Shown piece by piece: positions 365 to 17,951 of a stretch of DNA of 64,000 nt. Under the pieces are notes generated by a model, which was given only the letters and a program-made list of their open reading frames with translations, was not told where the DNA came from and ran no database searches. The translations under genes were made by a program, and so were the position numbers. Positions within the stretch are counted from its first letter, which is position 1. Each line of letters starts with the position of its first letter. Source of the stretch: an uncultured virus (IMG/VR IMGVR_UViG_3300047094_001085) (Duplodnaviria; Heunggongvirae; Uroviricota; Caudoviricetes); the IMG/VR virus record IMGVR_UViG_3300047094_001085; one strand, 5' to 3'.

Positions 365-444
365 AGTCGGGTGGCGGAATTGGATAGACGCGGCCCCGTC
401 GAGGGGTTTAACCGGAATTACAGGTTCGAGTCCTGTCCTGACTA
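365..444 (+). ncRNA. tRNA-like RNA, AGTCRGG family copy 1 (non-canonical anticodon arm)
   Basis: Acceptor AGTCGGG/CCTGACT+A; Leu-type D-arm GGCGGAATTGGATAGACGC; T-arm ACAGG-TTCGAGT-CCTGT; central hairpin lacks U33. Confidence 0.7.
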
Positions 445-446
445 CA

Positions 447-740: not shown

Positions 741-754
741 CAAAAATATATATT

Positions 755-1518: not shown

Positions 1519-1522
1519 CAAT

Positions 1523-1550: not shown

Positions 1551-1572
1551 ATTTTATAAGATATTTATAGTC

Positions 1573-3808: not shown

Positions 3809-3911
3809 AAAATAAACTAATAACAAGGTTTCAAATTAAATCCATCATTTTTTCGTGATGGATTTTTTTATATTAAAAATTTGACTATCTTTGTAAAAAA
3901 ATATATAAAGT

Positions 3912-4385: not shown

Positions 4386-4386
4386 A

Positions 4387-5354: not shown

Positions 5355-6009
5355 GATAGAGAAAGATAGAAAAGTTTTTATTACGTCCGATACACATTAC
5401 GGACATAAAAACATTTGCCGTGGAGTAACGGCTTGGAGATTACCGGATGGTAGCATTCCTGAATCACAGACAAGAAATTTTGAAACAATTGATGAAATGA
5501 ATGATGTAATCATCAACAACATCAATTCAGTTGTTGGTCAAGATGATGTATTAATTCACTTGGGTGACTGGTCTTTTGGAGGATTTGAAAATATTCAAAA
5601 ATTCAGAGATAGAATTTTGTGTAAAGAGATTCACCTTATATTGGGTAACCACGACCACCACATTGAAAACAACCGAGAGGATTGTCAGGAAATGTTTGCA
5701 AGTGTTAATCACTACACAAAATTAATGTATAAGTTTGAGACATTGGTTTTAATGCACTATCCAATTGATTCTTGGGATGGGTTAAACAAAGGACACATCC
5801 ACTTACACGGACACTGTCACTTACCTCAAACAAAAATTTTTGGTAAAGGCCGTAGAATGGATGTAGGAATGGATGGTAGTTTGTTCTTTTCACCATACGA
5901 TTTAAGTAACGTAATTAAGATTGTTAAGGAAAGAGAGATTCGTTCAAATATGGATGGTGACCACCACACAGATGAGGTAATAACTGAAGATGGTAAAAAA
6001 AGAAAGTGA
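5347..6009 (+). CDS. calcineurin-like metallophosphoesterase
   Basis: SDTHYGH, HLGD, GNHD, HYP and HGHCH motifs; ATG start at 5347. Confidence 0.88.
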   Translation: MIKIEKDRKVFITSDTHYGHKNICRGVTAWRLPDGSIPESQTRNFETIDEMNDVIINNINSVVGQDDVLIHLGDWSFGGFENIQKFRDRILCKEIHLILGNHDHHIENNREDCQEMFASVNHYTKLMYKFETLVLMHYPIDSWDGLNKGHIHLHGHCHLPQTKIFGKGRRMDVGMDGSLFFSPYDLSNVIKIVKEREIRSNMDGDHHTDEVITEDGKKRK

Positions 6010-6010
6010 T

Positions 6011-6301
6011 ATGAGAGTTAAAGAAACAAAAACAGATTTATTCATATGTTCCTGTCATAGTACAGAACATCAAATGGTTGTATTATATTCTGAAGACGAA
6101 ATTGATGGTATGACATATCCTATGGTTTATATTCACACACATCTTAATAAAAGACCATTTTGGCAAAGAGTTGGTTATGGATTAAGATATATTTTTGGGA
6201 GACAATGTAGATATGGTGCCTTTGATGAATTCATAATTAAATCGGAGGATGTTAAAGGTCTTGAAAAAATTATTAAACATTTAAAAGAATGTGAGGTATG
6301 A
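6011..6301 (+). CDS. hypothetical protein
   Basis: ORF in operon, start taken at the second Met. Confidence 0.6.
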   Translation: MRVKETKTDLFICSCHSTEHQMVVLYSEDEIDGMTYPMVYIHTHLNKRPFWQRVGYGLRYIFGRQCRYGAFDEFIIKSEDVKGLEKIIKHLKECEV

Positions 6302-6507
6302 TAAAAAATTTAATAATATTATTTTTATTTTTCACTTTGGTGTCTTGTGAAGCTGAAAAAAGAATTTATGAACATTCATATACTGATGAATGGTATTATA
6401 TTGACACGATGAGATTTCAGGTTTACAAAACCAAATCAGGTAAAAGATATATCCTTGTGTTAAATGAACAACAAACAAAATATAAACGACAATACATAAA
6501 ATTATGA
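6298..6507 (+). CDS. small putative lipoprotein
   Basis: hydrophobic signal peptide with LVSC lipobox. Confidence 0.55.
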   Translation: MIKNLIILFLFFTLVSCEAEKRIYEHSYTDEWYYIDTMRFQVYKTKSGKRYILVLNEQQTKYKRQYIKL

Positions 6508-6905
6508 AAGAATTATTTTTATTAAGAGGATTACCGGGAAGTGGTAAATCAACATTGGCAAAATCAATCGGTGGTATTCATATTGAAGCTGATATGTTTT
6601 TTATGAAAGATGGTGAATATCAATTTGATTTTACAAAATTAAAAGACGCTCACGCTTGGTGTCAAGAAAGTACTGAAAAAAGTATGAGAGCACTTGATAA
6701 TCCTAAAATTGGGACTAAGAGAATTATTGTATCAAACACATTCACACAAGAGTGGGAAATGACACCTTATTTTGAATTAGCGGAAAAATATGGATACAGA
6801 GTTCATTCACTTATCGTAGAAAACAGACACGGAGGAGTTAATCAACACGGGGTTCCGGAAGATAAGTTGGAAATAATGAAAAATCGTTTTGAAGTTAAAC
6901 TTTAA
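6504..6905 (+). CDS. polynucleotide kinase-like P-loop protein (AAA_33)
   Basis: RGLPGSGKST Walker A; EAD, VSNTF and HGVP motifs. Confidence 0.8.
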   Translation: MKELFLLRGLPGSGKSTLAKSIGGIHIEADMFFMKDGEYQFDFTKLKDAHAWCQESTEKSMRALDNPKIGTKRIIVSNTFTQEWEMTPYFELAEKYGYRVHSLIVENRHGGVNQHGVPEDKLEIMKNRFEVKL

Positions 6906-6938
6906 TTCCGTATCTTTGACCCACAAAATTATTTAATT

Positions 6939-7268
6939 ATGAGCGGAGGAGCATTTGATTACAACCAATATAAAATTGGTTATATCGCAGACCAAATAGA
7001 AGAGGTTATTGTGAAGAATGGTGTTAAGAAAACACCGGAAGAAATTAAAGATGAAGGTTGGAGAGACGATTCTTGGTATGAAAAATATCCCGAAGATAAA
7101 TTCCATTACAAATATCCGGATGAGGTTATTGAGAAGATGAAAGAGGCGGTTAAGTCTCTTAAAATTGCTCAAGAATATGCTCAACGAGTGGATTGGTTAT
7201 TATCGGGTGATGACAGTGAAGAATCATTCTTAAGTAGATTAGAAGAGAATTTAAAAAAAATAGAATAA
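6939..7268 (+). CDS. hypothetical protein
   Basis: MSGGAFDY...RVDWLLSGDD; coherent ORF. Confidence 0.7.
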   Translation: MSGGAFDYNQYKIGYIADQIEEVIVKNGVKKTPEEIKDEGWRDDSWYEKYPEDKFHYKYPDEVIEKMKEAVKSLKIAQEYAQRVDWLLSGDDSEESFLSRLEENLKKIE

Positions 7269-7269
7269 A

Positions 7270-8295
7270 ATGTTAGAAAAACTAAACAAATATTACGAAG
7301 ACGGATTACTTTACAAACAAGTACATCCATCACTTCCATTAACCATATGGAATTATACTGAAAAAGTTCAGTACGAGAACCTATGGGATGAGGTGACCCT
7401 GATGTGTAGAGGTTTAGTTACCGATAACGAAGGGAATATGGTTGCAATACCATTTCAAAAGTTCTTCAATATAGAAGAAGGTAAATTTACACCAACTGAA
7501 AATTTTGAAGTTTATGAAAAGATGGATGGTTCATTAGGGATTGTGTTTTGGTATCAAGGTCAATGGGTGGTAGCCACTCGTGGTTCATTCACTTCTGACC
7601 AAGCAATCAAGGCGACAGAAATCCTTAAAAAATATAACAAAGATATTATGTTCAGACATTTAACTTTCTGTTTTGAAATTATCTATCCGGAGAACAGAAT
7701 TGTTTTGGATTATGGTAATGATGAGAAACTAGTTCTATTAGGGACATTTGATAAGAACGGAAAAGAAACTGATTCTGAAATTTGGTCACAATGGGGGTTT
7801 GATGTGGTTAAAAAATATGACGGTATCACCGACTACAAACAACTAAAAGAAATGGTTAAAAACGACCAAGAAGGTTTTGTGGTAAAGTTCTCCAATGGAG
7901 ATAGAATCAAAGTTAAAGGGGTTGAATATCTACGTCTTCACAAAATTATGACCAACGTTACCACAACCGGTATTTGGGAGTATTTGAAAAATGGTGAGGA
8001 TGTGATGGAGTTATTAAAAGATGTTCCGGATGAATTCTATAAAAAAATTCAAAACTATGTTAAAGATTTGAGATATTCTTACTTCCAAATATCTGAAGAT
8101 GCAGGTAAAAAGTTTGATTATATGATGTATGGGAAATATAACGACAAAGAACCTATCACAGATAGAAAAGAGTTTGCTGAGTGGGTATCAACCCAACCAA
8201 AACATTTGTCAGGGATTCTATTTAGAATGTTAGATAAAAAAGATTACTCTGAAATCATATGGAACCTAATCAGACCGGAATTTAAAAAATTGTAA
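7270..8295 (+). CDS. RNA ligase, T4 Rnl1/RnlA family
   Basis: CRGLV, KFFN, EKMDGS (motif I), ATRGSF, EGFVV and KVK motifs. Confidence 0.88.
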   Translation: MLEKLNKYYEDGLLYKQVHPSLPLTIWNYTEKVQYENLWDEVTLMCRGLVTDNEGNMVAIPFQKFFNIEEGKFTPTENFEVYEKMDGSLGIVFWYQGQWVVATRGSFTSDQAIKATEILKKYNKDIMFRHLTFCFEIIYPENRIVLDYGNDEKLVLLGTFDKNGKETDSEIWSQWGFDVVKKYDGITDYKQLKEMVKNDQEGFVVKFSNGDRIKVKGVEYLRLHKIMTNVTTTGIWEYLKNGEDVMELLKDVPDEFYKKIQNYVKDLRYSYFQISEDAGKKFDYMMYGKYNDKEPITDRKEFAEWVSTQPKHLSGILFRMLDKKDYSEIIWNLIRPEFKKL

Positions 8296-8369
8296 AAAAG
8301 TGGGGCGTTAGTTCCACTTTTTTTATTTAATTACTATTTATAAGTTATATAAAACATTAAGTTAAAATT

Positions 8370-8975
8370 ATGAGTGTATCTATAATAGTAGCGTTTATCA
8401 CGGGGGTTTTAGGTCCTATTCTATTATTATTCATTAAGAATAAATTAGAAAAAAAAGCAGAAAAGCCGGATATGGTATTGGAAACGTTAAAAGTCAGTGA
8501 GCTTGTAATGACCAAATTAGACCATATAAAGGAAGAATATAAAGGAGATAGAGTATGGGTTGCACAATTCCACAATGGAGGTAATTTCTATCCAACCGGA
8601 AAATCAATGGCAAAGTTCAGTATTATATATGAATCTGTTGCTCCGTCAGTATCATCAATACAAGGAAATTTTCACAATATACCTGTTAATTTATTTAGCC
8701 GTTCAATTAATCAATTATTAGAACATGATACAATTGAAATTCCTGATTTTAAAGATGATACAGTAGCGACTTTTGGTTTAAAATATATTGCAGAAGATAC
8801 CGGATGTAAATCAGGATATCTTTTTGCGATAAAATGTATTGAAGGTAGATTTATTGGAATGTTAGGAATTGATTATACCAAGAAAAAAACAAAATTAAAC
8901 GAAGAAACTGTAACTCAATTATTGGTTCAGTCAACATCAATTGGTGGTGTGTTAATGAACCACTTACAACAATAA
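8370..8975 (+). CDS. membrane-anchored GAF-like protein (possible holin)
   Basis: single N-terminal TM helix followed by a GAF-like alpha/beta domain (FHNGG, GMLGIDY). Confidence 0.5.
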   Translation: MSVSIIVAFITGVLGPILLLFIKNKLEKKAEKPDMVLETLKVSELVMTKLDHIKEEYKGDRVWVAQFHNGGNFYPTGKSMAKFSIIYESVAPSVSSIQGNFHNIPVNLFSRSINQLLEHDTIEIPDFKDDTVATFGLKYIAEDTGCKSGYLFAIKCIEGRFIGMLGIDYTKKKTKLNEETVTQLLVQSTSIGGVLMNHLQQ

Positions 8976-8976
8976 T

Positions 8977-9591
8977 ATGAAAAAATTAATACAATTATTA
9001 GAAGCGAATATTCAGATATCATCTTTGAGTTGTGGAAACGTTAAAGTAGATAATGATAGTTCAAGTGATAAAGTTAATGAAAATTTATTGAAGGATATTT
9101 GTAAAGCGGCTAAAAATGCTAATGTTAGGGTTACTATAACTACAGCAATTTCAGGTCATAGTGCGGAAACAGCATCAGGAAACACAAGTAGACATCCATC
9201 AGGTAATGCTGTCGATATTAGTTTAGTTAATGAAACTCCGGTTAAAACTCCGTCAAATAGAGGTAATGTTGATAATTTTGTTAATCAATTAGAAATACTG
9301 GGATATACTAAAAATTCTGAACCTGATTCTTCAGTTCCTAAATCAGTTTTAACTTTTGGTTTTCCGGGTCATGATAATCATGTTCATGTCTCAAATATTG
9401 AACAAAGTTCCACAACATCATCTAGTGGTACAACATCATCTAGTGGGACTGCAGCGGCAAAGGATAGTCCTGAATCTATAAGTACAAATATTTTAAATAG
9501 TTTTATTGGAGATACGTTTGGTAAGGCTTTAGGGTTAAGAGAACAAAGAGTAAATAAAGAAATAAGTAAAATTAAAAACTTACTTAAATAA
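8977..9591 (+). CDS. peptidase M15-like Zn peptidoglycan hydrolase
   Basis: SRH-x6-D (SRHPSGNAVD) and HDNHVH zinc-ligand motifs. Confidence 0.65.
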   Translation: MKKLIQLLEANIQISSLSCGNVKVDNDSSSDKVNENLLKDICKAAKNANVRVTITTAISGHSAETASGNTSRHPSGNAVDISLVNETPVKTPSNRGNVDNFVNQLEILGYTKNSEPDSSVPKSVLTFGFPGHDNHVHVSNIEQSSTTSSSGTTSSSGTAAAKDSPESISTNILNSFIGDTFGKALGLREQRVNKEISKIKNLLK

Positions 9592-9620
9592 AAAAACCCC
9601 TCCGTTAAGAGGGGTTTTTT
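9590..9620. terminator. bidirectional intrinsic terminator
   Basis: AAAAAACCCCT-CCGTTAAG-AGGGGTTTTTT between convergent genes. Confidence 0.75.
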
Positions 9621-9628
9621 GTTTTAGA

Positions 9629-9802
9629 TTACTTCACTTGAGTAGTATCTACTTGTGTAGTGTCTACGGCTGTTGTATCTACTGATACTGAATCAACCGC
9701 TGTTGTATCAACAGATGTTGTTGATTCTTCTGTGTTTACTTGTTTACAAGATGTTAATGATAATGTTGCAATCACTGTAAGAGCTAATAATACTTTTTTC
9801 AT
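9629..9802 (-). CDS. small Thr/Asp-rich lipoprotein (not in ORF track)
   Basis: MKKVLLALTVIATLSLTSC-KQVNTEESTTSVDTTAVDSVSVDTTAVDTTQVDTTQVK; lipobox LTSC. Confidence 0.8.
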   Translation of the reverse strand: MKKVLLALTVIATLSLTSCKQVNTEESTTSVDTTAVDSVSVDTTAVDTTQVDTTQVK

Positions 9803-9935
9803 AATACTTTGTTTTAAATTAATTTTTAAGTTCGTTAAATAAATAGTTAATTAAAACGGGTAAGTCAAACATTATACCAAAAAAATTTACTTAATCGTTG
9901 TAATAAAAAATTTTTAAAAATATTTTTAGATAATG

Positions 9936-9966
9936 TTTGGTGTAAAGAAAAAAAGTATTATCTTTG
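9936..9966 (+). promoter_or_regulatory. Bacteroidota sigma-A type promoter
   Basis: TTTG-N19-TATCTTTG. Confidence 0.75.
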
Positions 9967-9987
9967 TACTCACAAAACGGATAAGAT

Positions 9988-10242
9988 ATGGCTAAAGAGA
10001 AATTGTATAGAAGTGTTAATGGTGAATACCTATATTTGTTTAATTGGATTGGTGGTGGATTTAATGATGTGTGGGGTCCAAGTAAAAGAGAGGCGTATGC
10101 TCGTGTTATGAGAGAACAAAAGGAACACGAGAAGAAATATCCAACTCACGTTAAGTTGAGACCGGACTATAAGTCAATGAGAAAATGTACTTATTCTCAG
10201 TATCAAGAACAAAACCGAATGGGTTGGATGATGAGTTGTTAA
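9988..10242 (+). CDS. hypothetical protein
   Basis: 84-aa ORF directly after the promoter. Confidence 0.7.
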   Translation: MAKEKLYRSVNGEYLYLFNWIGGGFNDVWGPSKREAYARVMREQKEHEKKYPTHVKLRPDYKSMRKCTYSQYQEQNRMGWMMSC

Positions 10243-10397
10243 AAACTACTTGAGTAAGTGGGAGTGGTCAATCAACAACCCAAAGAAGTTTCAGGTAAAA
10301 CTATATTTAAAAGAGGACGGCCGAGCCTATAATAGAGTAAGTAGGAAGTTAGTGTTTTTTAGGAAGATTGAGTCAGTTTTTAACATTAACGAAACAT

Positions 10398-10489
10398 AGT
10401 CGGGTGGCGCAATTGGTAGAGCAAGTAGATGACACAGATACTGATTCTGTAAATTTTCCGCTATACAGGTTCGAATCCTGTCCTGACTA
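10398..10489 (+). ncRNA. tRNA-like RNA, AGTCRGG family copy 2
   Basis: AGTCGGG...ACAGGTTCGAATCCTGTCCTGACTA; D-arm GGCGCAATTGGTAGAGC; extended non-canonical central arm. Confidence 0.7.
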
Positions 10490-10577
10490 CAGAGTAACTT
10501 AATGCGGTAGTAACCGAGTAGTAAGACTCCCTCAAGTGATATACCCGGTGTGGTTGGTTAATTGAAGTATCACGTAG

Positions 10578-10753
10578 AGTCAGGTGGCGGAAAGGTAGAC
10601 GATTCCCATCAACACACATAGGGAGATTCAGATTGTTGTGTGTATCGATTGTAGCACGTATTATAGCGTAAGTGACTGAAACTAAGGTCGTAGTATAATC
10701 GTAGTGTATAGGTGAAGCAATCACTCGTACAGGTTCAAATCCTGTCCTGACTA
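10578..10753 (+). ncRNA. tRNA-like RNA, AGTCRGG family copy 3 with ~125-nt central domain
   Basis: AGTCAGGTGGCGGAAAGGTAGACG...ACAGGTTCAAATCCTGTCCTGACTA. Confidence 0.7.
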
Positions 10754-10902
10754 CTTAGCAAGGTGTAAACGATTAGGAAAATTCGTCACAGGTTTACATT
10801 AAGTTGCAGACGAACCGAAATGCTTACGGTTAACAGGGCTTAACTCATAAAGTCCAGAGAGCATAATCTAACGAGTGACAGATTGGAAAGACAATCAAAT
10901 TT

Positions 10903-11004
10903 AGTCAGGAGACCATTGGTTGGTGGCACCTCCCCAAGGTTGAGTAACGATAAGGTCGACTCTTTATGGCAAAGCTGAAGCGGGTTCGAATCCTGTCCTG
11001 ACTA
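10903..11004 (+). ncRNA. tRNA-like RNA, AGTCRGG family copy 4
   Basis: AGTCAGG...GCGGGTTCGAATCCTGTCCTGACTA; divergent D region. Confidence 0.65.
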
Positions 11005-11026
11005 CAAATTTTAAAATAAATAAATT

Positions 11027-11185
11027 ATGGAAATAGTATTATTACAATTCGCATTGACTGGTTTAAACCTATACGGAGCAAAAACTCAAAAAGATAATGG
11101 TAGGAATCCCGCATTCAGTTATTTCGTTGCCGGAATGTGTTTTGGTTTTGGTTTATCCGGTTTGATAGAATTATTATTAAAATAA
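11027..11185 (+). CDS. small membrane protein (not in ORF track)
   Basis: 52 aa MEIVLLQFALTG...FVAGMCFGFGLSGLIELLLK; A-rich leader. Confidence 0.5.
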   Translation: MEIVLLQFALTGLNLYGAKTQKDNGRNPAFSYFVAGMCFGFGLSGLIELLLK

Positions 11186-11217
11186 TTTGACAGATTAAAA
11201 TAAAAGTATTATCTTTG
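11186..11217 (+). promoter_or_regulatory. Bacteroidota sigma-A type promoter
   Basis: TTTG-N20-TATCTTTG. Confidence 0.75.
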
Positions 11218-11250
11218 TAGAAGAAATAAAGTTCTTAAAAATATTGAAAA

Positions 11251-11337
11251 TATAGGTGGACGTTGTGTCGAGGTTTCAAATCCCTCCGGTTTTAACACCG
11301 TAGCTCAGATGGTAGAGCATACGTCCACTAACTTATA
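11251..11337 (+). ncRNA. circularly permuted tRNA-like RNA (YrlA-like topology)
   Basis: closing stem GTGGACGT/ACGTCCAC encloses a T-arm, then a closed acceptor-like stem CGGT-TTTAAC-ACCG, then D-arm TAGCTCAGATGGTAGAGC. Confidence 0.7.
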
Positions 11338-11339
11338 AT

Positions 11340-11431
11340 GGTATTGTAGCTCAGTGGGAGATTCGTCTTCCTTTGGTAGAGCAGGAGTAACGAAAGACTC
11401 TGTGCCGTAGGTTCGAACCCTTCCGATACCA
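11340..11431 (+). ncRNA. atypical tRNA-like RNA with hairpin inserted in the D-loop
   Basis: GGTATTG/CGATACC+A acceptor; GCTC/GAGC D-stem with GGGAGA-TTCG-TCTTCC insertion; 8-nt anticodon loop AACGAAAG; TTCGAAC T-loop. Confidence 0.6.
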
Positions 11432-11437
11432 CAAAAA

Positions 11438-11573
11438 TATAAACCATAATTTGGCGGAGGATGGAACTACGAATTTATTTGTAGTAAAGTATCGTCGGGT
11501 GAGAGACCCGGATGGATAGAAGGTAGACAAGTAATCCTAGACACGTCCGCAGATTCCTTCTCTTGGGTTTATA
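11438..11573 (+). ncRNA. putative structured RNA
   Basis: terminal TATAAACC/GGTTTATA pairing; inner GCGGA/TCCGC, ACTACGAAT/ATTTGTAGT and CGGGT/ACCCG helices. Confidence 0.45.
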
Positions 11574-11580
11574 GATTTAT

Positions 11581-11698
11581 TCTGTGATAAGATAGCAGAT
11601 AGACCTATTACAGCAGACTATCCCGTAGGGAGTGCGAGTTTTAGGTAGAATAGAATGGGTGACCTACGAATGAGTAAATCTTAAGGTCTTATCACAGA
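11581..11698 (+). ncRNA. putative structured RNA
   Basis: perfect 12-bp terminal stem TCTGTGATAAGA/TCTTATCACAGA. Confidence 0.5.
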
Positions 11699-11720
11699 TT
11701 AAAAAAAAATAAAAAAAAAG

Positions 11721-11866
11721 TTTGACAATTCAAATAAGTTTACTTACCTTTGTCAAACATTTGAGAAACAGGTTGACCGGAGTCATAAAACGTTGTATAG
11801 TTTTCCTCTTCTCAAAAAAAAAGTTTTATAAAGTGCTTGACAAATGAAAAAAATCACTTACCTTTG
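11721..11866 (+). promoter_or_regulatory. tandem sigma-A type promoters
   Basis: TTTG-N20-TACCTTTG (11721-11752) and CTTG-N19-TACCTTTG (11836-11866), each with an upstream A-tract. Confidence 0.75.
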
Positions 11867-11904
11867 TAAAACAAATTAGGGAAACCTAATACGTTCTTAG
11901 AAAT

Positions 11905-12778
11905 TTTAGATTATCCATCAGGATGTTGATGATGAGACCCTCGGGTTGATTCTGAGATAACTGAAAAACGATAATGGGTGGTATATCATCCTTAAATAAA
12001 CCGGGAAACCGGGATAAAGTGAATCTGTTGTGTTAACAGGTTTGCGGTCTCAGAAATGGGACTCGAGTATACAAGTCGGATATCGCCTAACCTTTAGTAC
12101 TGAGGGAAACTCTGTAAGGAAAGTGGTTGGGTGACCGGGAGATGTGGGTCTTTCGGTTGAGATTGGAAAATCAATAAGAATAACCGATAGGAATCAAGTG
12201 AGAAATAGGGTCATCCAACCTTATAATTGCGGGTTCCAATATGAGAGAAATCTTAAAGTCGAAAGACAAGATAAGTAACAGGTGGTGCTGTCATTATCCT
12301 TATCAAATATCTACCAAGATTTTGATTCGAAGAATTCTTAAAATATGAGAGATGGGAATTTCTACCGGGTAGATTGGTATTTCGTCGTCCAAAAGATGAT
12401 GAAGCCTAAGACAAACCTCTACTTGGACAAATCCACAACACAAACCAAACTTTTCAATAGGTGAAAAACTAACAGAAAAACGGAAAAGTGTTTGTCAGGT
12501 GATAACGAAAGTTGCTTCCATAGTCACGGGCTGTCCGTGGCACGAAAGAACCCCAAGTTCAATCGTATTTTTACCAAAAACCTCTACGGAGTCGAATCCG
12601 GAGTCAGGTCGCAAGCTTGAAGAGAGTAGAGTAGTAAGAGAGTAGTTATTATCTTAAGGAGTAATTGGTCTAACCAATTAGCAATGAGGATTACCACTCA
12701 AAAGGTGGTGGAAACGAAGGGAAACAATAATCCTTCTAAAGATTCTTACTAAGACGAGTATTCTCATCGTATTAAGCC
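11905..12778 (+). ncRNA. large ornate non-coding RNA, GOLLD-like
   Basis: ~870 nt without an ORF; GC-richer; many GNRA-capped hairpins (CCGG-GAAA-CCGG, GTC-GAAA-GAC, GGTC-GCAA-GCT); own promoter and terminator; adjacent to the tRNA-like cluster. Family assignment rests on size and context only. Confidence 0.6.
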
Positions 12779-12814
12779 AAAAAGGTAACTCATTTATTTG
12801 TGTTACCTTTTTTT
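12779..12814. terminator. bidirectional terminator
   Basis: AAAAAGGTAAC...GTTACCTTTTTTT. Confidence 0.75.
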
Positions 12815-12816
12815 GT

Positions 12817-13464
12817 TTATAATAGTTTATTTGATTTTTTTAGATTGTCTTCAGCCCATAATGGTTGAAGATTTGTATAATAACATAGATTATAAAGTTC
12901 TTTTTCCGTTTTTGCGGATGATAATGGGATTATATGGTCAATATGCCATCCGTACACTCCATAATTATCCCAAGACATTCCTTCCGTAAATTTAGATTCC
13001 AAGTAATGAGATATTTCAATAGGTGTTAAACCAATAATTTCAAAAGTTTTATTTTTTTTTAATATGTTATTTTTTTTAATATACTCGGACATTCTTTTTC
13101 TTACTGAACACGAAATTAAAAATATCAAGTCAGTTTGTTTTCGTAATTTTCTTTTTTGATTAACTTTATCTTTGTTTTGTTCATACCATTCTTTTTGATA
13201 TTTTTTTAACTCTTCACTATTTTTTTGATTATAACTTTTATGGTAATTATAAACGTGTTCCGGATTAGATATTTTCCACTTTTTATTATATTCTAATAAA
13301 TGTGTTTTATTATTTAATCTCCATTCTTTTCCACAACTTTTACATTCACTTCGAAGACCATCTTTAGAATCATTACGTTTTCCAAACTCGCAAACTTCTT
13401 TCTCTTCTTTACACTTACTACAAACTTTTTTTTCCATAATGTTTACTTTAAACCATAACTCCAT
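12817..13464 (-). CDS. HNH homing endonuclease
   Basis: N-terminal CSKC...CKSC zinc finger; WHIDHIIP...NLQPLWAEDNLKKSN. Confidence 0.85.
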   Translation of the reverse strand: MELWFKVNIMEKKVCSKCKEEKEVCEFGKRNDSKDGLRSECKSCGKEWRLNNKTHLLEYNKKWKISNPEHVYNYHKSYNQKNSEELKKYQKEWYEQNKDKVNQKRKLRKQTDLIFLISCSVRKRMSEYIKKNNILKKNKTFEIIGLTPIEISHYLESKFTEGMSWDNYGVYGWHIDHIIPLSSAKTEKELYNLCYYTNLQPLWAEDNLKKSNKLL

Positions 13465-13840
13465 TGGAGGTTATTGTAAAATCTATTATTTTTACCGTAT
13501 CATTCTCATCATTAAAATGAATTTTACCAAAAGTGTGACCATTTTTAGTTTCTACGTCGAATACATTAGTTTCAAAATTTAAATTCAAGTTTAAACGCTC
13601 TTGTAATTTTTCATTTAATTCATCCACGGAATCGTATAAATGTTCTTGAAGGAAAGATTTGACGATAATTTCCACCAACATTCCTTTGTAACTTTTTTGT
13701 TTTCCATAATGTTCATTTAATAATGTTTCAATCAGTCGAGATTTATTAATCATCTCATCATCCATTTTTTTGTAAATTATTGGGTCAACACAGATTCCAA
13801 ATTTTACTTTTTTATCTTCTTCTTTTTTTCTTGGGTTCAT
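13448..13840 (-). CDS. hypothetical protein (possible ribbon-helix-helix N-terminus)
   Basis: 130-aa ORF; NKSRLIETLL helix. Confidence 0.5.
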   Translation of the reverse strand: MNPRKKEEDKKVKFGICVDPIIYKKMDDEMINKSRLIETLLNEHYGKQKSYKGMLVEIIVKSFLQEHLYDSVDELNEKLQERLNLNLNFETNVFDVETKNGHTFGKIHFNDENDTVKIIDFTITSNGVMV

Positions 13841-13916
13841 AATATCTTTTTATTATAAATATCTCAAAAAATCTAAAAAGTCATAATTTTTAGAAAAAAA
13901 GTATTATCTTTGTCCT

Positions 13917-14192
13917 ATGAAAAAATTAATCACAGAAAATTGGGAAAGAAAATATACCGGAGAATTACGGGTTAGGAAAGTATTGTCTATATTACCATTT
14001 ATTATTGTCAATGGTGAAGATAGTGATTTTCATTGGACCGGTAAATGGTTCAAGTATGTTACAATTCAGGAACAAAAAGTGAAAGACCGTTATTTAGAGT
14101 TTGATGATGGATGGAATTACCAACATTATTGGGGAGAATGGGAGTTAAGTTGGGTATTAACCAAAATTATAGAAGATGAAAAAGTCAATTAA
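13917..14192 (+). CDS. hypothetical protein
   Basis: ORF starting 4 nt after TATCTTTG. Confidence 0.6.
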   Translation: MKKLITENWERKYTGELRVRKVLSILPFIIVNGEDSDFHWTGKWFKYVTIQEQKVKDRYLEFDDGWNYQHYWGEWELSWVLTKIIEDEKVN

Positions 14193-14613
14193 TATTGTCA
14201 ATAAGAAAGCCAAGTTTGAGTATTCATTCTTGGAAACTCTAATTGTGGGAATCAAATTAGTTGGTTCAGAGGTGAAGTCCATCCGTCAGGGGAAGGTGTC
14301 CATATCTGAAGGGTATTGTTATTTTAATGATGGGGAATTGTTTATAAAAGGGATGAACATTTCCGATTATGGTTATGGGTCATTCCACGAGACCATTAAA
14401 GATAGAAAACTATTGGCCAAGAAAAAAGAACTAAATAAGTTGGAACGTGAGTTAATCAACGGGACAACCATCATTCCTTATCGTGTCTTCATAAATGATA
14501 CCGGATTGGTTAAGATGGAGATTGCTCTTGCCAAAGGGAAAAAACTCCACGATAAACGAGATAGTATAAAATCTCGTGATATTGAAAGAGATATGAAAAG
14601 GGACTTGAAATAG
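14176..14613 (+). CDS. smpB: SsrA-binding protein SmpB
   Basis: NKKAKFEY, GIKLVGSEVKSIR, RKLL and LAKGKKLHDKR motifs. Confidence 0.95.
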   Translation: MKKSINIVNKKAKFEYSFLETLIVGIKLVGSEVKSIRQGKVSISEGYCYFNDGELFIKGMNISDYGYGSFHETIKDRKLLAKKKELNKLERELINGTTIIPYRVFINDTGLVKMEIALAKGKKLHDKRDSIKSRDIERDMKRDLK

Positions 14614-14638
14614 TCCCTTTTTTTATTATAATTAAATT

Positions 14639-15019
14639 ATGAATTTATTAATACCTACTAAAATAGAAATTAAACCCTCACCAGGAAAAGGTATGGGGGT
14701 CTTCGCTATTGACGTTATTCAAAAAGATGAGGTAATTGAAGAATGTCATTTAGTAAAATTACCCACAAAAAAATGGGAGAAATCAAAACTACTTGATGAT
14801 TATAGATTTTGTTATCCTCAAGGACCAAATTGGGAAGAATATGTTATTCCATTAGGTTATGGGTGTATATATAATCATTCCGATACAAATAATGCTATGT
14901 GGAGAAATCATCCAACACAAAGAGCATTCCAATTCTACGCTTTACAAACAATCCAACCCGGTGAAGAAATTTGTACAAACTATGGTGAAGGTTACCTATG
15001 GGGTGGTGTCAAACAATAA
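14639..15019 (+). CDS. SET domain lysine methyltransferase
   Basis: GKGMGVFA, YNHS..N and IQPGEEICTNYG motifs. Confidence 0.85.
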   Translation: MNLLIPTKIEIKPSPGKGMGVFAIDVIQKDEVIEECHLVKLPTKKWEKSKLLDDYRFCYPQGPNWEEYVIPLGYGCIYNHSDTNNAMWRNHPTQRAFQFYALQTIQPGEEICTNYGEGYLWGGVKQ

Positions 15020-15053
15020 ATTATCAGTTCAATATAAACAAATTAAAAAAAAA

Positions 15054-15395
15054 ATGGAAATTATGATTATAGGAATTTTTTTAGGTATGGTTATGGTTCT
15101 CGGGATACTGGGGGTTATAGTTGTGGTTAGGATGTATTCAAACATCAAAAAATTAAAAGGATTGGTTAGAACTCAACAAGAAATAATAAATAATATTTAT
15201 TTAAGAATAGATGAGGTAGACCAAATGATTAACCGTCGTATTGATGGTGAGATTGATAGAACAAATAAATTAAATGAAACAACGAATAGACATATTACGA
15301 CTAATATTGACGAAATATATAGATTTGTTGATTCAAGATTAGATAAATTAACAAATAAATTAAATCCGAGTAAAAAGGATTTATTACAAGATTAA
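15054..15395 (+). CDS. membrane-anchored coiled-coil protein
   Basis: start taken at MEIMII; TM helix then coiled coil; upstream part of the track ORF overlaps the SET gene. Confidence 0.6.
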   Translation: MEIMIIGIFLGMVMVLGILGVIVVVRMYSNIKKLKGLVRTQQEIINNIYLRIDEVDQMINRRIDGEIDRTNKLNETTNRHITTNIDEIYRFVDSRLDKLTNKLNPSKKDLLQD

Positions 15396-15474
15396 AAAAT
15401 AAACATTGAACTGATAACAAACCACCTCCGGGTGGTTTTTTTTTTATAATAGATATTTATATTAAAAAAATATT

Positions 15475-16095
15475 ATGAAAAATAATTTTGAAGAAATTAA
15501 TGAATTGATACGTACTAATAACAATAATCGTAAATATGATAGTTGGTTTGATTGGGAGATTAATAATAATATTGAGATTTCTAAATTTAAAGAAGTAATA
15601 AGTGGTGTAGATTCATCAAATTTTAATCCTGATTTTTTACCAAAATCTTTAATTGACCAACTTTCAAAAATTAAAACGGATACAATATTAGATTATGGTG
15701 CAGGATTAGGTAGAAATCTACCATTATTAAAAAAATATTCAAATAATGTTGATTACATAGATTTAGAACACTATCAAAAAAATTATATTGATTATATTAA
15801 TGATTTGGGTTACAATGAAACCTATTTTATAGAAATGATACCTGATTGTTTAATCGGAAAAAAATATGATTTAATTTATTGTTCTGTAGTTTTACAACAT
15901 ATTATTGATGATGAGATATATGAAAAAATTGTAAAAATATTATATGACGCTTGTGATTATTTATTTTTAGTTCAAAATATGACACCAATAAAAGATGTGT
16001 TTTATGATTACTTTAAATTAGAACATTGTGAAATAAGTAATGTTTATTTTGGTAAACATAGATACTGTTTATTTAAAACAAAAAACCCATCGTAA
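15475..16095 (+). CDS. class I SAM-dependent methyltransferase
   Basis: ILDYGAGLGR and YDLIYCSVVLQHI motifs. Confidence 0.8.
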   Translation: MKNNFEEINELIRTNNNNRKYDSWFDWEINNNIEISKFKEVISGVDSSNFNPDFLPKSLIDQLSKIKTDTILDYGAGLGRNLPLLKKYSNNVDYIDLEHYQKNYIDYINDLGYNETYFIEMIPDCLIGKKYDLIYCSVVLQHIIDDEIYEKIVKILYDACDYLFLVQNMTPIKDVFYDYFKLEHCEISNVYFGKHRYCLFKTKNPS

Positions 16096-16110
16096 TGATG
16101 GGTTTTCTTT

Positions 16111-16506
16111 TGGTGGAAGTGCGGAGACTCGAACTCCGGTGTTACTTGTATTACCTATTAAGGACTACACGTTTAGGTCATTGTTTAAGCTAACAATCCG
16201 AAATTTCACAATTCCCTTATTTTTTGAGTGGTTCGGTTTACTGAGAACTAATCTTCCACTTGTTTCTTTTCGGGTAGAAACCACACCTTTGTAGGGACTT
16301 CTGTTGCTAGGTTATATGTCCACCGACCCCGTGTTGTGTTTCCGCTTAGGCTACTACAACTTCTTCAGCACGGATTAAACCGATAGCTGACATTTTGTCT
16401 AAAACGTTTCCGTTTACTTTTCGTACTCCATAGATTTAAGTGATAGGAAACTTCTCACTACGTGCCCCGAATAACTATTACGAATAGTCAATTCCATGTC
16501 ACTCCC
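16111..16506 (-). ncRNA. ssrA: tmRNA
   Basis: 5' GGGAGTGACATGGAATTGAC; 3' CGGAGTTCGAGTCTCCGCACTTCCACCA; G3.U70 pair; tag ORF 16411-16346; sigma-A promoter at 16521-16551; smpB nearby. Confidence 0.92.
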
Positions 16507-16583
16507 ATATTTTGATACCACAAAGATAATACATTTTTGGATAAATCCAAATAAAATTATATTTATTATTAAAATAAATATCA

Positions 16584-17951
16584 ATGCCTGACACAAAGGA
16601 TTTTCACGGGATGAAAAATATATTATTAGATAATGAAGATTGGATGGTTGTAGACCCATTGGACTACGATTCCTTTGTTTATTACGCACCGGAAAACTAT
16701 AAAGACAGATGGAATCAATTTAAAGAGGGGGACACTTATTTTATTATAGATAAAAATAAGGAACCAATTCAAACATCAGTTATTCATAAAACACAAGATA
16801 ATAAAATAGAATATTATGGTGGTGAAGCAACCAGACACAGAGAATTAAATAGAAGTGAATTTGAATCCGATTTACCGGATGAGGTTAAATCCGTTGTTGA
16901 TAATATTGTGGGTCAATCAGATGTTTACAAATTACTATTGGATGTTAAAAACGGAGAAAAAGTAACGTCTAATCAAATGCAAAGAGCTGACGACCTTGTT
17001 TGGAAGTTCATATATAATGAGAAAAATCCAACTAAAAGTATGGTTAAACTTCAGTTTGATGATATGGAGGATTATTTAAAATTATTTGATATTGACGAAT
17101 ACGATATTCCTTTTGCGGAATCGGTTTATTCTTATTATGATGGAGCCAATTTTATTGATTATGACCACGGATATAATGAATGGAATGAAGGATATCTTTT
17201 ATATCAATTTTCAGATGACAATTTAACTAAATTAAAACAAATACTTCGACTTATTAGTCCATCTACCGCTAAATTAGATACTGATGAAGACAAAGAACAA
17301 TCTAGTAAATTATTAGAGAAAATGTTTCCAAATGAGGTTGATTACATTATTACTGATTGGACTGACGAAGAAAATGCTAGTAGAAATAATGGTGCCAAAG
17401 AATGGATTGAGGGTGACGTGTGTGATTATTTTTCTAATTATGGTTTAATTAGACAAGATTGTTTTAGACAGTATTACACCACTGTGAGTATATTATTATC
17501 TTTATATAACAACGTTGGAGATAAAACATTATCTTTACGAGAAGTGTTAAAAAATATTGGTCATAGAGATAGTAATATTGGCGGATGGGATGAGAATAGG
17601 TGGGAAATTGATAGTGTCAGCTTTGATGAAAAATCATTCAATGAATCTGTGGAAAGACAACTTGATAAAATTTTTGAAAAAATAGAAGATTCTGATGAAT
17701 TTATTGATGTTTATGAATACTCTAATATATTCAATAGAATTACTAAAAATTATCATCTTAACAACAGATATGAAACTAAATCAGGTAGAGAGTTTTTTAT
17801 TAGAAAAATCGACCCGGCAACAAATAAAATTGTTGTTCAAGTGTTTAAAAAAGATGGTGGTGGATTGGAAGATAGAAGTTACACCGAAGAAGAATTTAAT
17901 AACTTTTTAGTTTCTCCCGAGTTATTTGAAGGGTTTATTAGAATAAACTAA
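16584..17951 (+). CDS. acidic hypothetical protein
   Basis: 455-aa ORF with TATTTAT upstream. Confidence 0.8.
   Translation: MPDTKDFHGMKNILLDNEDWMVVDPLDYDSFVYYAPENYKDRWNQFKEGDTYFIIDKNKEPIQTSVIHKTQDNKIEYYGGEATRHRELNRSEFESDLPDEVKSVVDNIVGQSDVYKLLLDVKNGEKVTSNQMQRADDLVWKFIYNEKNPTKSMVKLQFDDMEDYLKLFDIDEYDIPFAESVYSYYDGANFIDYDHGYNEWNEGYLLYQFSDDNLTKLKQILRLISPSTAKLDTDEDKEQSSKLLEKMFPNEVDYIITDWTDEENASRNNGAKEWIEGDVCDYFSNYGLIRQDCFRQYYTTVSILLSLYNNVGDKTLSLREVLKNIGHRDSNIGGWDENRWEIDSVSFDEKSFNESVERQLDKIFEKIEDSDEFIDVYEYSNIFNRITKNYHLNNRYETKSGREFFIRKIDPATNKIVVQVFKKDGGGLEDRSYTEEEFNNFLVSPELFEGFIRIN

What the first reader, a model, noticed from the sequence alone, without database searches (positions are those of the whole stretch)
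10243..12814. 2.6-kb non-coding RNA island in a gene-dense phage
Seen: only one short ORF, but three strong sigma-A promoters inside the island (a fourth just upstream at 9936), five tRNA-shaped but non-decoding RNAs, several closed-stem RNAs and one giant RNA. No canonical tRNA lies in the island. Inference: a co-expressed RNA toolkit (decoys, scaffolds and a large RNA assembly) acting together early in infection.
Basis: partly seen in the sequence, partly recalled or inferred. Interest (0 to 1): 0.75.

Follow-up and report, generated by a model that had tools for sequence, protein, structure and literature searches.

The report
GOLLD and tRNA-mimic phage RNA island
A large lake phage devotes 2.6 kb to stable non-coding RNAs: the known cage-forming GOLLD RNA preceded by five tRNA look-alikes that cannot read codons, three of which belong to a large family that I did not find described.

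Summary
Window 10243-12814 contains one real small gene (52 aa); the rest is RNA genes.

The "giant RNA" is GOLLD (Rfam RF02032, 312 bits against a cut-off of 150), with its own promoter-like site and terminator.

Ahead of it lie five non-decoding tRNA-shaped RNAs:
- Three copies of a tRNA-Leu-like scaffold. The acceptor, D and T arms are constant and the middle is hypervariable. At least 164 distinct members occur in viral contigs, and none of 98 tested has a usable anticodon arm.
- A permuted, YrlA-type tRNA-like RNA. No Ro60 gene is found in the window or in two complete relatives.
- A tRNA-like RNA with a hairpin inside its D loop and an 8-nt anticodon loop.

RNA-library contigs from four lake or freshwater studies cover GOLLD, the tRNA-like region and the phage tmRNA, but almost none of the flanking protein genes.

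Twelve related records keep the same module order and gain or lose individual modules. The permuted/hairpin pair lies next to GOLLD in 17 of 18 informative records, all of one clade. The Leu-like scaffolds mostly occur without GOLLD (GOLLD in 6 of 49 records).

"Acting together, early" is untested. The most likely mechanism is inferred, not shown: tRNA-processing enzymes cut these RNAs out, and they act as tRNA mimics or tRNA-anchored effectors.

The scan had already noted the permuted RNA and the hairpin RNA on other DNA.

The parts
9937..9966 (+). Promoter-like site P1 (TTG..TATCTTTG) ahead of the 84-aa ORF and the first RNA array
   Evidence: Motif scan. Its core is a 21-nt repeat of the site at 11199-11219 (D4).
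9988..10242 (+). 84-aa ORF with no Pfam family, the first gene of the transcription unit that runs into the RNA array
   Evidence: Present at 88-97% identity in 12 of 12 related records.
10243..10397 (+). Conserved 155-nt leader RNA ('lead') directly before the scaffold array
   Evidence: 88-100% identical in 10 of 12 relatives and in an unrelated contig (L065), again directly before a scaffold RNA. Its structure is only weakly supported.
10398..10489 (+). S1, a tRNA-Leu-like scaffold RNA (AGUCGGG acceptor, constant D and T arms, unique middle)
   Evidence: Model R1 gives 72.5 bits. ARAGORN calls it 'Cys-ACA' at 93 nt. The MFE fold shows no anticodon arm. Absent from all 12 relatives. An RNA contig covers 10272-10491.
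10492..10577 (+). Spacer with two hairpins between S1 and S2
   Evidence: 48 nt are 98% identical to a spacer behind a scaffold in L057. Fold z 0.1.
10578..10753 (+). S2, a scaffold RNA with a middle of about 126 nt
   Evidence: Same 5' and 3' constant parts as S1 (D1). R1 matches only its 3' part, at 30.9 bits. Found in 1 of 12 relatives.
10756..10902 (+). Spacer sp2 between S2 and S3
   Evidence: 99% identical in 2 of 12 relatives. An RNA contig covers 10787-10873.
10903..11004 (+). S3, a scaffold RNA of a conserved subfamily
   Evidence: R1 gives 44.4 bits. The middle is 84-100% identical in L133, L012, L040 and in 9 of 12 relatives. Compensatory changes are seen by eye in two hairpins: CGA/UCG to CGG/CCG to CAG/CUG, and ACC/GGU to CCC/GGG.
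11027..11185 (+). 52-aa conserved small membrane-type protein, the only real ORF in the island
   Evidence: 47 homologous clusters at 62-94% identity, nearly all 52 aa. Present in 8 of 12 relatives. No Pfam family.
11187..11217 (+). Promoter-like site P2 (TTGACA..TATCTTTG)
   Evidence: Conserved in relative G021.
11243..11342 (+). Permuted tRNA-like RNA of YrlA design: closing stem 11256-11263/11321-11328, then T arm, closed 'acceptor' hairpin and D arm
   Evidence: Rfam YrlA gives 38.9 bits, E 3e-6, below the cut-off of 69. In the closing stem 3 of 8 pairs covary and 100% of cells are paired across 12 sequences.
11340..11431 (+). tRNA-like RNA with a 16-nt hairpin inside the D loop and an 8-nt loop (AACGAAAG) in place of the anticodon loop
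   Evidence: Rfam tRNA gives 37.7 bits with a 21-nt insert. In the D-loop hairpin 5 of 6 pairs covary; the acceptor and T stems covary too. The isotype is inconclusive.
11438..11575 (+). csA, a structured module closed by AUAAACC/GGGUUUAU
   Evidence: Fold of 11433-11712 has z -2.9. 94-95% identical in 3 of 12 relatives.
11576..11703 (+). csB, a structured module closed by a 17-nt stem
   Evidence: Inverted repeat I3, 94% complementary. Present in 8 of 12 relatives. In some of them it follows the hairpin tRNA-like RNA directly.
11722..11752 (+). Promoter-like site P3
   Evidence: Repeat D3, shared with P4.
11760..11816 (+). Small hairpin followed by an A run (weakly supported RNA)
   Evidence: Fold z -0.41. 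Present in 2 of 12 relatives.
11837..11866 (+). Promoter-like site P4, in front of GOLLD
11868..12775 (+). GOLLD RNA, about 0.9 kb: 5' domain 11868-12364 and conserved 3' domain 12365-12770
   Evidence: RF02032 gives 312 bits. The 5' domain is 70-78% identical to five other GOLLD loci and folds with z -6.75. RNA contigs with 0 mismatches cover 12203-12603 in two studies.
12783..12815 (.). Hairpin followed by a T run: terminator of GOLLD, facing the convergent - strand genes
   Evidence: Sequence. Inverted repeat I1. The terminator scan does not list it.
365..444 (+). S0, a fourth member of the scaffold family, outside the island among three ordinary tRNA genes
   Evidence: R1 gives 62.4 bits. 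The fold shows a 6-bp stem with a 5-nt loop where the anticodon arm should be.

Best explanation
**What it is.** The island is a mosaic locus of stable RNA genes in a T4-like jumbo phage of roughly 300 kb. The size is estimated from the completeness of related records. The host is probably a freshwater Bacteroidota bacterium.

**Shown.**
- It encodes GOLLD.
- It encodes a permuted (YrlA-design) tRNA-like RNA fused head to tail with a D-loop-hairpin tRNA-like RNA.
- It encodes three members of a large phage-borne family of tRNA-Leu-like scaffold RNAs. Their upper half (acceptor stem, D arm, T arm, A73) is nearly invariant. Their lower half (anticodon and variable arms) is replaced by a different structured insert in each member.
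- It also holds two further structured modules and one 52-aa protein gene.
- These RNAs are present in lake RNA libraries while neighbouring protein genes are not.

**Inferred.**
- Host RNA polymerase starts at four host-type promoters.
- The long precursors are cut by the host's tRNA-processing enzymes: RNase P at the conserved U(-1)/A1 junction, then 3' trimming to the conserved C74 and CCA completion.
- This releases compact RNAs that are stable like tRNAs.
- The invariant upper half serves as the processing and stability handle, and as the part that host tRNA-binding factors see.
- The variable lower half carries the specific activity. It either holds on to a host factor as a decoy or presents a custom hairpin.
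- GOLLD assembles into its known multimeric cage.
- In this clade the permuted and hairpin tRNA mimics are its constant neighbours and are the best candidates for a working partner or cargo.
- The Leu-like scaffolds are independent, exchangeable cassettes.
For: **GOLLD and expression.**
- GOLLD matches at 312 bits over the full model.
- In four RNA libraries from four studies, GOLLD bins have word depth 66-11,729, tmRNA 39-398 and the tRNA-like bins 3-244. Bins 8301-9504 and 13117-14922 are 0 to 6.
- Exact contigs cover 12203-12603 in X16 and X19.

**Scaffold family.**
- The 5' 26 nt, which the search did not constrain, are at least 90% conserved.
- 0 of 98 testable members have a 5-bp/7-nt anticodon arm with U33 and R37.
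- ARAGORN assigns more than 15 different 'anticodons'.
- C follows A73 in 136 of 140 members, and T precedes position 1 in most.
- The same 22-mer occurs in only 25 stretches of 185,579 species' genomes. All are MAG contigs, and about half are from Bacteroidota bins.
- The window's genuine tRNA-Leu is the best-scoring real tRNA under the family model (34.1 bits).
- Subfamily S3 shows compensatory changes.
- Other family members appear in the RNA libraries as contigs that share the constant ends and differ in the middle (joints 10601 to 10723-10728).

**Permuted/hairpin pair.**
- 20 of 25 exact hits of a 16-mer are homologues.
- 96.3% of cells are paired and 12 of 47 pairs change on both sides, against 0-2 in slid controls.
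- GOLLD is present in 18 of those 20 records and adjacent on the same strand in 17 of 18.

**Mosaic structure.** The module map of 12 relatives keeps one order with modules present or absent. Relatives hold 0-4 scaffolds in the same slot.
Against: **No processing or function data.**
- No RNA ends, CCA addition, aminoacylation or binding was measured.
- The RNA data are assembled contigs chosen because they hold this stretch. They show presence, not level, strand or ends.

**Limits of the GOLLD link.**
- The records that link the pair to GOLLD belong to one clade and include near-duplicates: only 11-12 distinct pair sequences. The synteny may therefore be inherited rather than functional.
- No YrlA hit at E <= 0.01 lies within the 3.4-kb loci around five GOLLD genes outside the clade.

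**Nothing points to a partner or target.**
- No protein family lies consistently within 3 kb of the scaffolds (at most 7 of 70 contigs).
- The variable middles show no antisense match within this window beyond shuffles.
- The permuted RNA lacks the Ro60-docking motif. No Ro60 gene exists in the window or in two complete relatives.

**Biases and recalled points.**
- The family was collected by an exact 22-mer, so conservation of the 3' end is by construction.
- The promoter consensus, the RNase P preference for U(-1), and the indifference of LeuRS to the anticodon are recalled, not tested.
Confidence: 0.6

Rival explanations
1. One integrated machine. The small tRNA-like RNAs are cargo or structural partners of the GOLLD cage, and the whole island works as a unit.
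For: - The permuted/hairpin pair is adjacent to GOLLD in 17 of 18 informative records.
- The core order is kept in 11 of 12 relatives.
- The cryo-EM preprint proposes phage tRNAs as possible cage contents (passages read).
Against: - GOLLD is found in only 6 of 49 records that carry a scaffold RNA.
- Modules are gained and lost between near-identical phages.
- There are four separate promoter-like sites.
- Outside the clade GOLLD sits with ordinary tRNAs and tmRNA, with no YrlA hit within the 3.4-kb GOLLD loci.
- No binding was tested.
Confidence: 0.15
2. Chargeable but non-decoding tRNAs. The scaffold RNAs keep what leucyl-tRNA synthetase needs (A73 and the Leu-type D arm and elbow). They are leucylated and serve as an amino-acid donor, or as a sink for the synthetase or EF-Tu, rather than as decoys.
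For: - The D arm is of tRNA-Leu type, A73 is invariant and C74 is nearly so.
- The genuine tRNA-Leu is the closest real tRNA under model R1.
- Recalled, not tested: bacterial LeuRS does not read the anticodon.
Against: - No charging data exist.
- The acceptor stem sequence differs from the phage's own tRNA-Leu.
- It matches no bacterial genome outside MAG contigs.
- CCA is encoded in only 5 of 140 members.
- Subfamily conservation of the lower halves is not explained by a pure charging role.
Confidence: 0.1
3. Recombination cassettes. The constant tRNA-like ends and the repeated promoter cores are mainly homology handles that let phages swap RNA and gene cassettes at a hot spot, and the particular RNAs are passengers.
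For: - Indel borders between the window and G021 fall at the shared 5' ends of the scaffolds and at the repeated promoter cores.
- Relatives hold 0-4 scaffolds in the same slot.
- GOLLD identity (72-98%) is uncoupled from the flanks (88-97%).
Against: - The constant parts keep every tRNA upper-half feature and covary as RNA.
- Members stand alone in 53 of 70 loci, where no exchange partner exists.
- They are present in RNA libraries.
Confidence: 0.1
4. Decayed tRNA genes: remnants of a former tRNA array, without function.
For: - Related phages carry 25 or more ordinary tRNAs in the matching position beside GOLLD and tmRNA.
- ARAGORN still calls some members as tRNAs.
Against: - The upper half is nearly invariant across at least 164 members in unrelated gene contexts.
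- Compensatory changes occur in the lower halves and in the pair.
- The RNAs are selectively present in RNA libraries.
Confidence: 0.05

Closest known systems
GOLLD RNA (Rfam RF02032; Weinberg et al. 2009, recalled; cryo-EM preprint 10.1101/2024.12.08.627333, passages read)
   Same: - Full-length match to the conserved 3' domain.
- A long, variable 5' domain.
- Phage-borne and next to tRNA-type genes.
- Abundant as RNA.
   Different: In this clade the neighbours are non-decoding tRNA mimics rather than ordinary tRNA genes. Cage formation by this member was not tested.
YrlA / bacterial and phage Y RNAs bound by Ro60 (Rfam RF02553; Chen et al. 2014, PMC4201824, passages read)
   Same: The design is the same: a stem that encloses a T arm, a closed 'acceptor' hairpin and a D arm. 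In other words, a tRNA opened at the anticodon end.
   Different: - The score is below the family cut-off (38.9 against 69).
- The GNCGAAN0-1G docking motif is absent.
- No Ro60 gene lies within 4 kb, in the 64-kb window, or in two complete relatives.
- It is fused to a second tRNA-like RNA.
RNA species I and II in the tRNA gene region of phage T4 (named in a figure legend of PMC2330249; their tRNA-like processing is recalled)
   Same: Stable small RNAs of unknown function, encoded among the tRNA genes of a T4-type phage and co-transcribed with them.
   Different: No sequence relation was tested. The present families are far more numerous and have a fixed tRNA upper half.
tmRNA (Rfam RF00023; also encoded in this window at 16111-16506)
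   Same: A tRNA upper half (acceptor and T arm) whose lower half is replaced by another functional module.
   Different: tmRNA has alanine identity, pseudoknots and a tag reading frame and works with SmpB. The scaffold RNAs are 54-182 nt, Leu-like and have hypervariable inserts.
tRNA-anchored viral and engineered RNAs: the tRNA-linked pre-miRNAs of murine gammaherpesvirus 68 and laboratory 'tRNA scaffolds' for RNA expression (both recalled, no call)
   Same: A non-decoding tRNA body used as a handle for processing and stability, attached to another RNA module.
   Different: Those are eukaryotic or artificial. In them the module is attached beside or within the anticodon stem of a single construct, not in a natural family of hundreds of variants.

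Membership tests
GOLLD (RF02032) | Covariance-model score at or above the curated gathering score, over the whole model | tested here: met
   312 bits against 150, model positions 1-416, E 2e-88.
GOLLD (RF02032) | A large, less conserved 5' domain upstream of the conserved 3' domain, giving a total of about 800 nt or more | tested here: met
   11868-12364 folds with z -6.75 and is 70-78% identical to the 5' parts of five other GOLLD loci. Promoter to terminator spans about 0.94 kb.
GOLLD (RF02032) | Phage or prophage location near tRNA genes | tested here: met
   The window has a T4-type portal, capsid and terminase. tRNA-like genes lie upstream, and tmRNA and tRNAs lie within the window.
GOLLD (RF02032) | Assembly into a 14-mer cage | not testable with these tools
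   Known from cryo-EM of another member. No RNA multimer prediction was run.
YrlA / Y RNA (RF02553) | Covariance-model score at or above the gathering score | tested here: not met
   38.9 bits against 69. At E <= 0.01 the same model also rings in 9 of 14 control genomes.
YrlA / Y RNA (RF02553) | tRNA-like domain in the order T arm, closed acceptor-like hairpin, D arm, enclosed by a stem | tested here: met
   Closing stem 100% paired with 3 of 8 covarying pairs. The D stem is invariant. The T and hairpin stems are 77-88% paired.
YrlA / Y RNA (RF02553) | GNCGAAN0-1G motif near the 5' end (the presumed Ro60 contact) | tested here: not met
   Not present in 11217-11262 by inspection. The nearest string is GUCGAG. 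The motif definition comes from PMC4201824.
YrlA / Y RNA (RF02553) | Ro60 (TROVE) gene within about 4 kb on the same strand | tested here: not met
   - No TROVE among 75 window ORFs.
- tblastn with four phage TROVE proteins finds nothing in the window.
- 0 of 5 clade records have TROVE, including two complete genomes.
tRNA (RF00005) | Cloverleaf with a 5-bp anticodon stem and a 7-nt loop (U33, purine 37) | tested here: not met
   - S1 and 11340 pass the model cut-off (37 bits against 29).
- However, 11340 has an 8-nt loop and a 21-nt D-loop insert.
- S0-S3 show no such arm in their folds.
- 0 of 98 family members pass the test.
AGUCAGG tRNA-Leu-like scaffold RNAs (family defined here, model R1) | - 7-bp acceptor stem AGUCAGG/CCUGACU.
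- Leu-type D arm.
- T arm ACAGG-UUCGAAU-CCUGU.
- A73, then C.
- A non-tRNA middle of 16-132 nt. | tested here: met
   - S1 scores 72.5 bits, S0 62.4 and S3 44.4.
- S2 matches in part (30.9 bits) because of its 126-nt insert.
- Alignment of 44 members.
- Middle lengths.

The most novel reading that the evidence does not exclude
The AGUCAGG scaffold RNAs are a natural 'tRNA-handle' platform. Bacteroidota phages carry a shared, exchangeable library of hundreds of different RNA modules. Each is grafted onto the same tRNA-Leu upper half, so host enzymes cut it out, cap it with CCA and perhaps charge it.

The modules would serve as RNA-only counter-defence or host-takeover effectors. In the GOLLD-bearing clade, the companion tRNA mimics would be the long-sought clients of the GOLLD cage.
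Probability: 0.12. Interest if true: 0.9.

Novelty: new variant of a known kind. Interest (0 to 1): 0.68.

Why it matters
**GOLLD function.** GOLLD has had no known function since its discovery, and its cage structure raised the question of what goes inside. A clade in which GOLLD is always preceded by two dedicated, non-decoding tRNA mimics gives concrete candidates for partner or cargo. They can be co-expressed and looked for in purified particles.

**A new RNA family.** The tRNA-Leu-like scaffold family has at least 164 distinct members in viral contigs. It has no Rfam family, and my literature searches found no description of it. It would be a large class of phage RNAs that use a tRNA body for something other than decoding.

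**Annotation.** tRNA finders report these RNAs as tRNAs with arbitrary anticodons or introns, which inflates phage tRNA counts.

Tried and rejected
**Origin of replication.** No iterons or skew switch. Rejected.

**Hidden coding.** Only the 52-aa ORF has homologues. The 87-aa - strand frame has no Pfam hit and overlaps RNA genes. Rejected.

**Host tRNA copy or attachment site.** The 22-mer occurs in no isolate genome, and the phages carry both halves of the tRNA-like body. Rejected.

**Conserved protein partner next to the scaffolds.**
- I clustered 653 ORFs from 72 loci that represent 70 contigs.
- The largest family reaches 7 contigs.
- Nothing found.

**Antisense targets of the four variable middles within the window.** The longest matches (10-12 nt) are no longer than in shuffles. 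A thermodynamic version of this test timed out.

**Isotype of the hairpin tRNA-like RNA.** Among 154 phage tRNA calls the best scores are Ser 25.6, Phe 25.4 and Gly 24.2, so the result is inconclusive.

**Leader structure.** RNAalifold gives only -1.33 kcal/mol of covariation. Most two-sided changes come from one divergent sequence.

**Public phage genomes.** Only the GOLLD part of the island matches, in 3 records at 66-71% identity.

**The window's own assembly is not held**. The nearest record, G001, is 100% identical over the island and adds nothing.

**RNA-library bins without cover.** Parts of 11010-11611 in X16 and X18 have no cover. These are contig data, so this is not evidence of silence.

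**Literature.**
- Searches (listings seen). A search for a 14-nt string of the constant 3' end found 0 papers.
- None of these turned up a description of the scaffold family.
- Subscription journals and supplements were not searched.

Full report
**Setting.**
- The window belongs to a phage with a T4-type portal, prohead protease, major capsid protein and large terminase.
- Its closest cultured relatives by capsid protein are Flavobacterium and Microcystis phages, at 40-43% identity.
- Related viral records that share the island are 308-318 kb when complete.
- Holders of the DNA are lake-water metagenomes.
- Upstream of the island lie RNA-repair-type genes: a cyclic-phosphate REC domain, a metallophosphatase, an AAA_33 kinase and a T4 Rnl1-type RNA ligase.
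- Downstream lie SmpB and, on the other strand, a tmRNA gene.

**The observation.**
- Between 10243 and 12814 there is no ORF above 59 aa on the + strand. The single 87-aa - strand frame overlaps RNA genes and has no Pfam hit.
- G+C rises to 0.37-0.43 from 0.23-0.34 in the flanks.
- The one short ORF (11027-11185, 52 aa) is a real gene. It has 47 homologous clusters, nearly all of exactly 52 residues, with invariant N14, L15, A18, R26, N27, P28, F30, Y32, F33 and G36.

**The giant RNA is GOLLD.**
- Rfam RF02032 matches 12365-12770 at 312 bits (cut-off 150) over the whole model.
- The 497 nt before it fold with z -6.75 and are 70-78% identical to the 5' parts of five other GOLLD genes.
- A promoter-like site ends at 11866, and a hairpin with a T run follows at 12783-12815.
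- The RNA is therefore about 0.94 kb.
- GOLLD is known to be phage-borne and near tRNA islands, to rise during lysis, and to form a 14-mer cage. Its function is unknown (preprint 10.1101/2024.12.08.627333, passages read).

**The Leu-like scaffold RNAs.**
- *Shared ends.* S1, S2 and S3 share the 5' end AGUC(A/G)GG and a 26-34-nt 3' end.
- *Conserved 5' part.* The first 26 nt were not part of the search. They are nonetheless nearly invariant and read like the acceptor strand plus D arm of a tRNA-Leu.
- *Variable middle.* What lies between is 16-132 nt of unrelated sequence.
- *Not decoding.* None of the 98 members with a recognisable D stem has a 5-bp/7-nt anticodon arm with U33 and a purine at 37.
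- *Miscalled by tRNA finders.* ARAGORN scatters them over more than 15 'anticodons', often with 'introns'.
- *Ends.* The base after A73 is C in 136 of 140. CCA is encoded in 5 of 140. The base before position 1 is T in most.
- *Not a host tRNA.* The 22-mer is almost absent from 185,579 species' genomes. There are 25 stretches, all on MAG contigs, and about half are from Bacteroidota bins.
- *Copy number.* Most carriers have one copy within 3 kb (53 of 70 loci), and some have up to 7. In 42 of 70 loci no other tRNA call is nearby.
- *No protein partner.* No protein family is a regular neighbour.
- *In this window.* A covariance model of the family (R1) finds S1, S3, part of S2 and a fourth member, S0, at 365-444 among the window's ordinary tRNA genes.
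- *Selection on the middle.* Subfamily S3 recurs in several contigs, with compensatory changes in two hairpins seen by eye. The lower halves are therefore under selection as RNA.

**The permuted and hairpin tRNA-like pair.**
- From the site at 11187 a conserved leader runs into an RNA closed by an 8-bp stem. That RNA holds, in this order, a T arm, a closed hairpin and a D arm.
- This is the YrlA design (Rfam hit 38.9 bits, E 3e-6; design described in PMC4201824).
- It abuts a tRNA-like RNA with a 6-bp hairpin inside the D loop and the 8-nt loop AACGAAAG.
- A 16-mer from that loop found 25 viral stretches. Of these, 20 are homologues, and in 19 the permuted RNA precedes it.
- On 12 distinct sequences, 96.3% of cells pair and 12 of 47 pairs change on both sides. 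Slid controls give 0-2.
- As a Y RNA it fails three of four defining features: the score, the GNCGAAN0-1G motif and a nearby Ro60 gene.
- There is no TROVE protein in the window or in five clade records, two of them complete.
- Ro60-like genes do sit next to GOLLD in other phages that carry the scaffold family (G046, G049).
- It works like a YrlA-type tRNA mimic, but I do not file it as a Y RNA.

**How the parts travel.**
- A relative whose flanks are 96% identical lacks S1 and S2, the 52-aa gene, csA, csB, the site at 11722 and three downstream ORFs. It keeps the leader, S3, the pair and GOLLD.
- A module map of 12 related records shows one order: ORF84, leader, scaffold array, (ORF52), permuted RNA, hairpin RNA, (csA), (csB), (small hairpin), GOLLD, (ORFs), SmpB. 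Bracketed modules are present or absent.
- Relatives hold 0-4 scaffolds in the array.
- GOLLD identity to the window ranges from 72 to 98%, while the flanks stay at 88-97%.
- GOLLD is present in 18 of the 20 records with the pair. The other two contigs end just downstream of the pair.
- GOLLD is adjacent on the same strand in 17 of 18. These records are one clade and contain duplicates.
- By contrast, GOLLD is present in 6 of the 49 records with a scaffold RNA that I could search, out of about 120 contigs.
- GOLLD genes outside the clade are flanked by ordinary tRNAs, tmRNA, a group I intron or an internal tRNA.

**Expression.**
- Six RNA libraries hold 18-26% of the island's sampled words. 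I laid four of them, from four studies, on 8000-17000.
- Summed contig word depth is 66-11,729 over GOLLD, 39-398 over the tmRNA, 3-244 over 10408-11009, and 0-88 over 11010-11912.
- Depth is 0 to about 6 over the protein genes at 8301-9504 and 13117-14922.
- Contigs with no mismatch cover 12203-12603 in two studies.
- One contig covers the leader plus S1 (10272-10491).
- Several contigs join the constant 5' and 3' parts of S2 across a different middle, which means other family members are present in the same libraries.
- These are assembled contigs from runs chosen because they hold the stretch. They show presence in RNA libraries and a contrast with the flanks. They do not show levels, ends, strand or timing.

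**Promoters.**
- A generic sigma-70 scan shows no excess.
- The four sites fit the Bacteroidota form TTG..TAnnTTTG (consensus recalled) and share 21-27-nt cores.
- One of them is conserved in a relative, and the same form sits directly before the tmRNA gene.
- Host-type promoters fit early transcription in a T4-type phage. That is an inference.

**Mechanism.**
- *Shown.* The families, their conservation and covariation, the mosaic synteny, and the selective presence in RNA libraries.
- *Inferred: processing.* Host tRNA enzymes at the U(-1)/A1 and A73-C74 junctions release tRNA-stable RNAs.
- *Inferred: division of labour.* The invariant upper half is the handle and the face shown to tRNA-binding factors. 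The variable lower half gives specificity.
- *Inferred: partners.* The pair is the likeliest partner of the GOLLD cage in this clade. The scaffolds are independent cassettes.
- *Context.* Fast turnover between near-identical phages, many variants on one handle, and the neighbouring RNA-repair and trans-translation genes fit a conflict over host tRNA or ribosome function. No target was found.

**Prior notes of this scan.** The permuted RNA (e1-5651088) and the hairpin RNA between it and GOLLD (e1-6052874) were noted before on other DNA. My counts agree with both. I could not confirm the 'tRNA-Phe' label of the second.

**Verdict.**
- This is a real and well-supported RNA island.
- GOLLD itself is a new member of a known family.
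- The arrangement, with non-decoding tRNA mimics from apparently undescribed families in place of tRNA genes, is a new variant of the known GOLLD-tRNA island.
- Its value lies in giving testable candidates for what GOLLD works with.

Noticed in passing
window 1-1520: A second RNA cluster.
- tRNA-Thr (56-139), scaffold RNA S0 (365-444, called 'tRNA-Arg' by ARAGORN), tRNA-Leu (661-741) and tRNA-Met (1443-1519).
- Unannotated spacers lie at 140-364 and 445-660. They may hold further RNAs.
   Followed up: partly
window 14176-14613 (+) and 16111-16506 (-): The phage encodes both SmpB (Pfam 160 bits) and a tmRNA (Rfam 67.8 bits).
- The tmRNA has a host-type promoter-like site at 16550-16521.
- It is covered by RNA-library contigs in four studies.
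- tmRNA also lies within a few kb of GOLLD in three other phage records (L138, L140, L185).
   Followed up: partly
window 3912-8295: A run of RNA- and nucleotide-repair-type genes just upstream of the island: NT5C, a cyclic-phosphate REC domain, a Pyr_excise-like gene, a metallophosphatase, an AAA_33 kinase and a T4 Rnl1-type RNA ligase.
   Followed up: no
L181 787-2328, L184 715-2361, L182 796-2421, L183 862-2403: Ro60-like (TROVE) ORFs of 513-548 aa occur in four phage records that carry scaffold RNAs.
- In G046 the ORF starts about 200 nt after GOLLD.
- In G049 it lies about 5 kb after GOLLD.
   Followed up: partly
L143 1501-1991; L185 11956-12155: One GOLLD gene (162.8 bits) contains a canonical tRNA inside it (1575-1647). 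Another phage has a group I intron (60.7 bits) about 1 kb upstream of GOLLD.
   Followed up: no
G053 272389-272547, G061 44411-44560, G068, G052: Relatives of this phage encode ribosomal protein bS21 (76-77 aa) about 19-23 kb from the island. No Pfam hit to it was found in the present window.
   Followed up: partly
window 11868-12775 compared with L212-L221: GOLLD identity to the window varies from 72 to 98% among relatives whose flanking genes are 88-97% identical. This suggests exchange of GOLLD alleles.
   Followed up: no
window 18831-20876 (-): A 681-aa Clp/Hsp100-type double-AAA ATPase (AAA_2 233 bits, ClpB_D2-small) is encoded by the phage. A promoter-like site lies at 20967-20933.
   Followed up: no
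window 10880-10895 and 12160-12175: Two near-identical small hairpins (GAUUG-GAAAxx-CAAUC). One is in the spacer before S3 and one is inside the GOLLD 5' domain.
   Followed up: no
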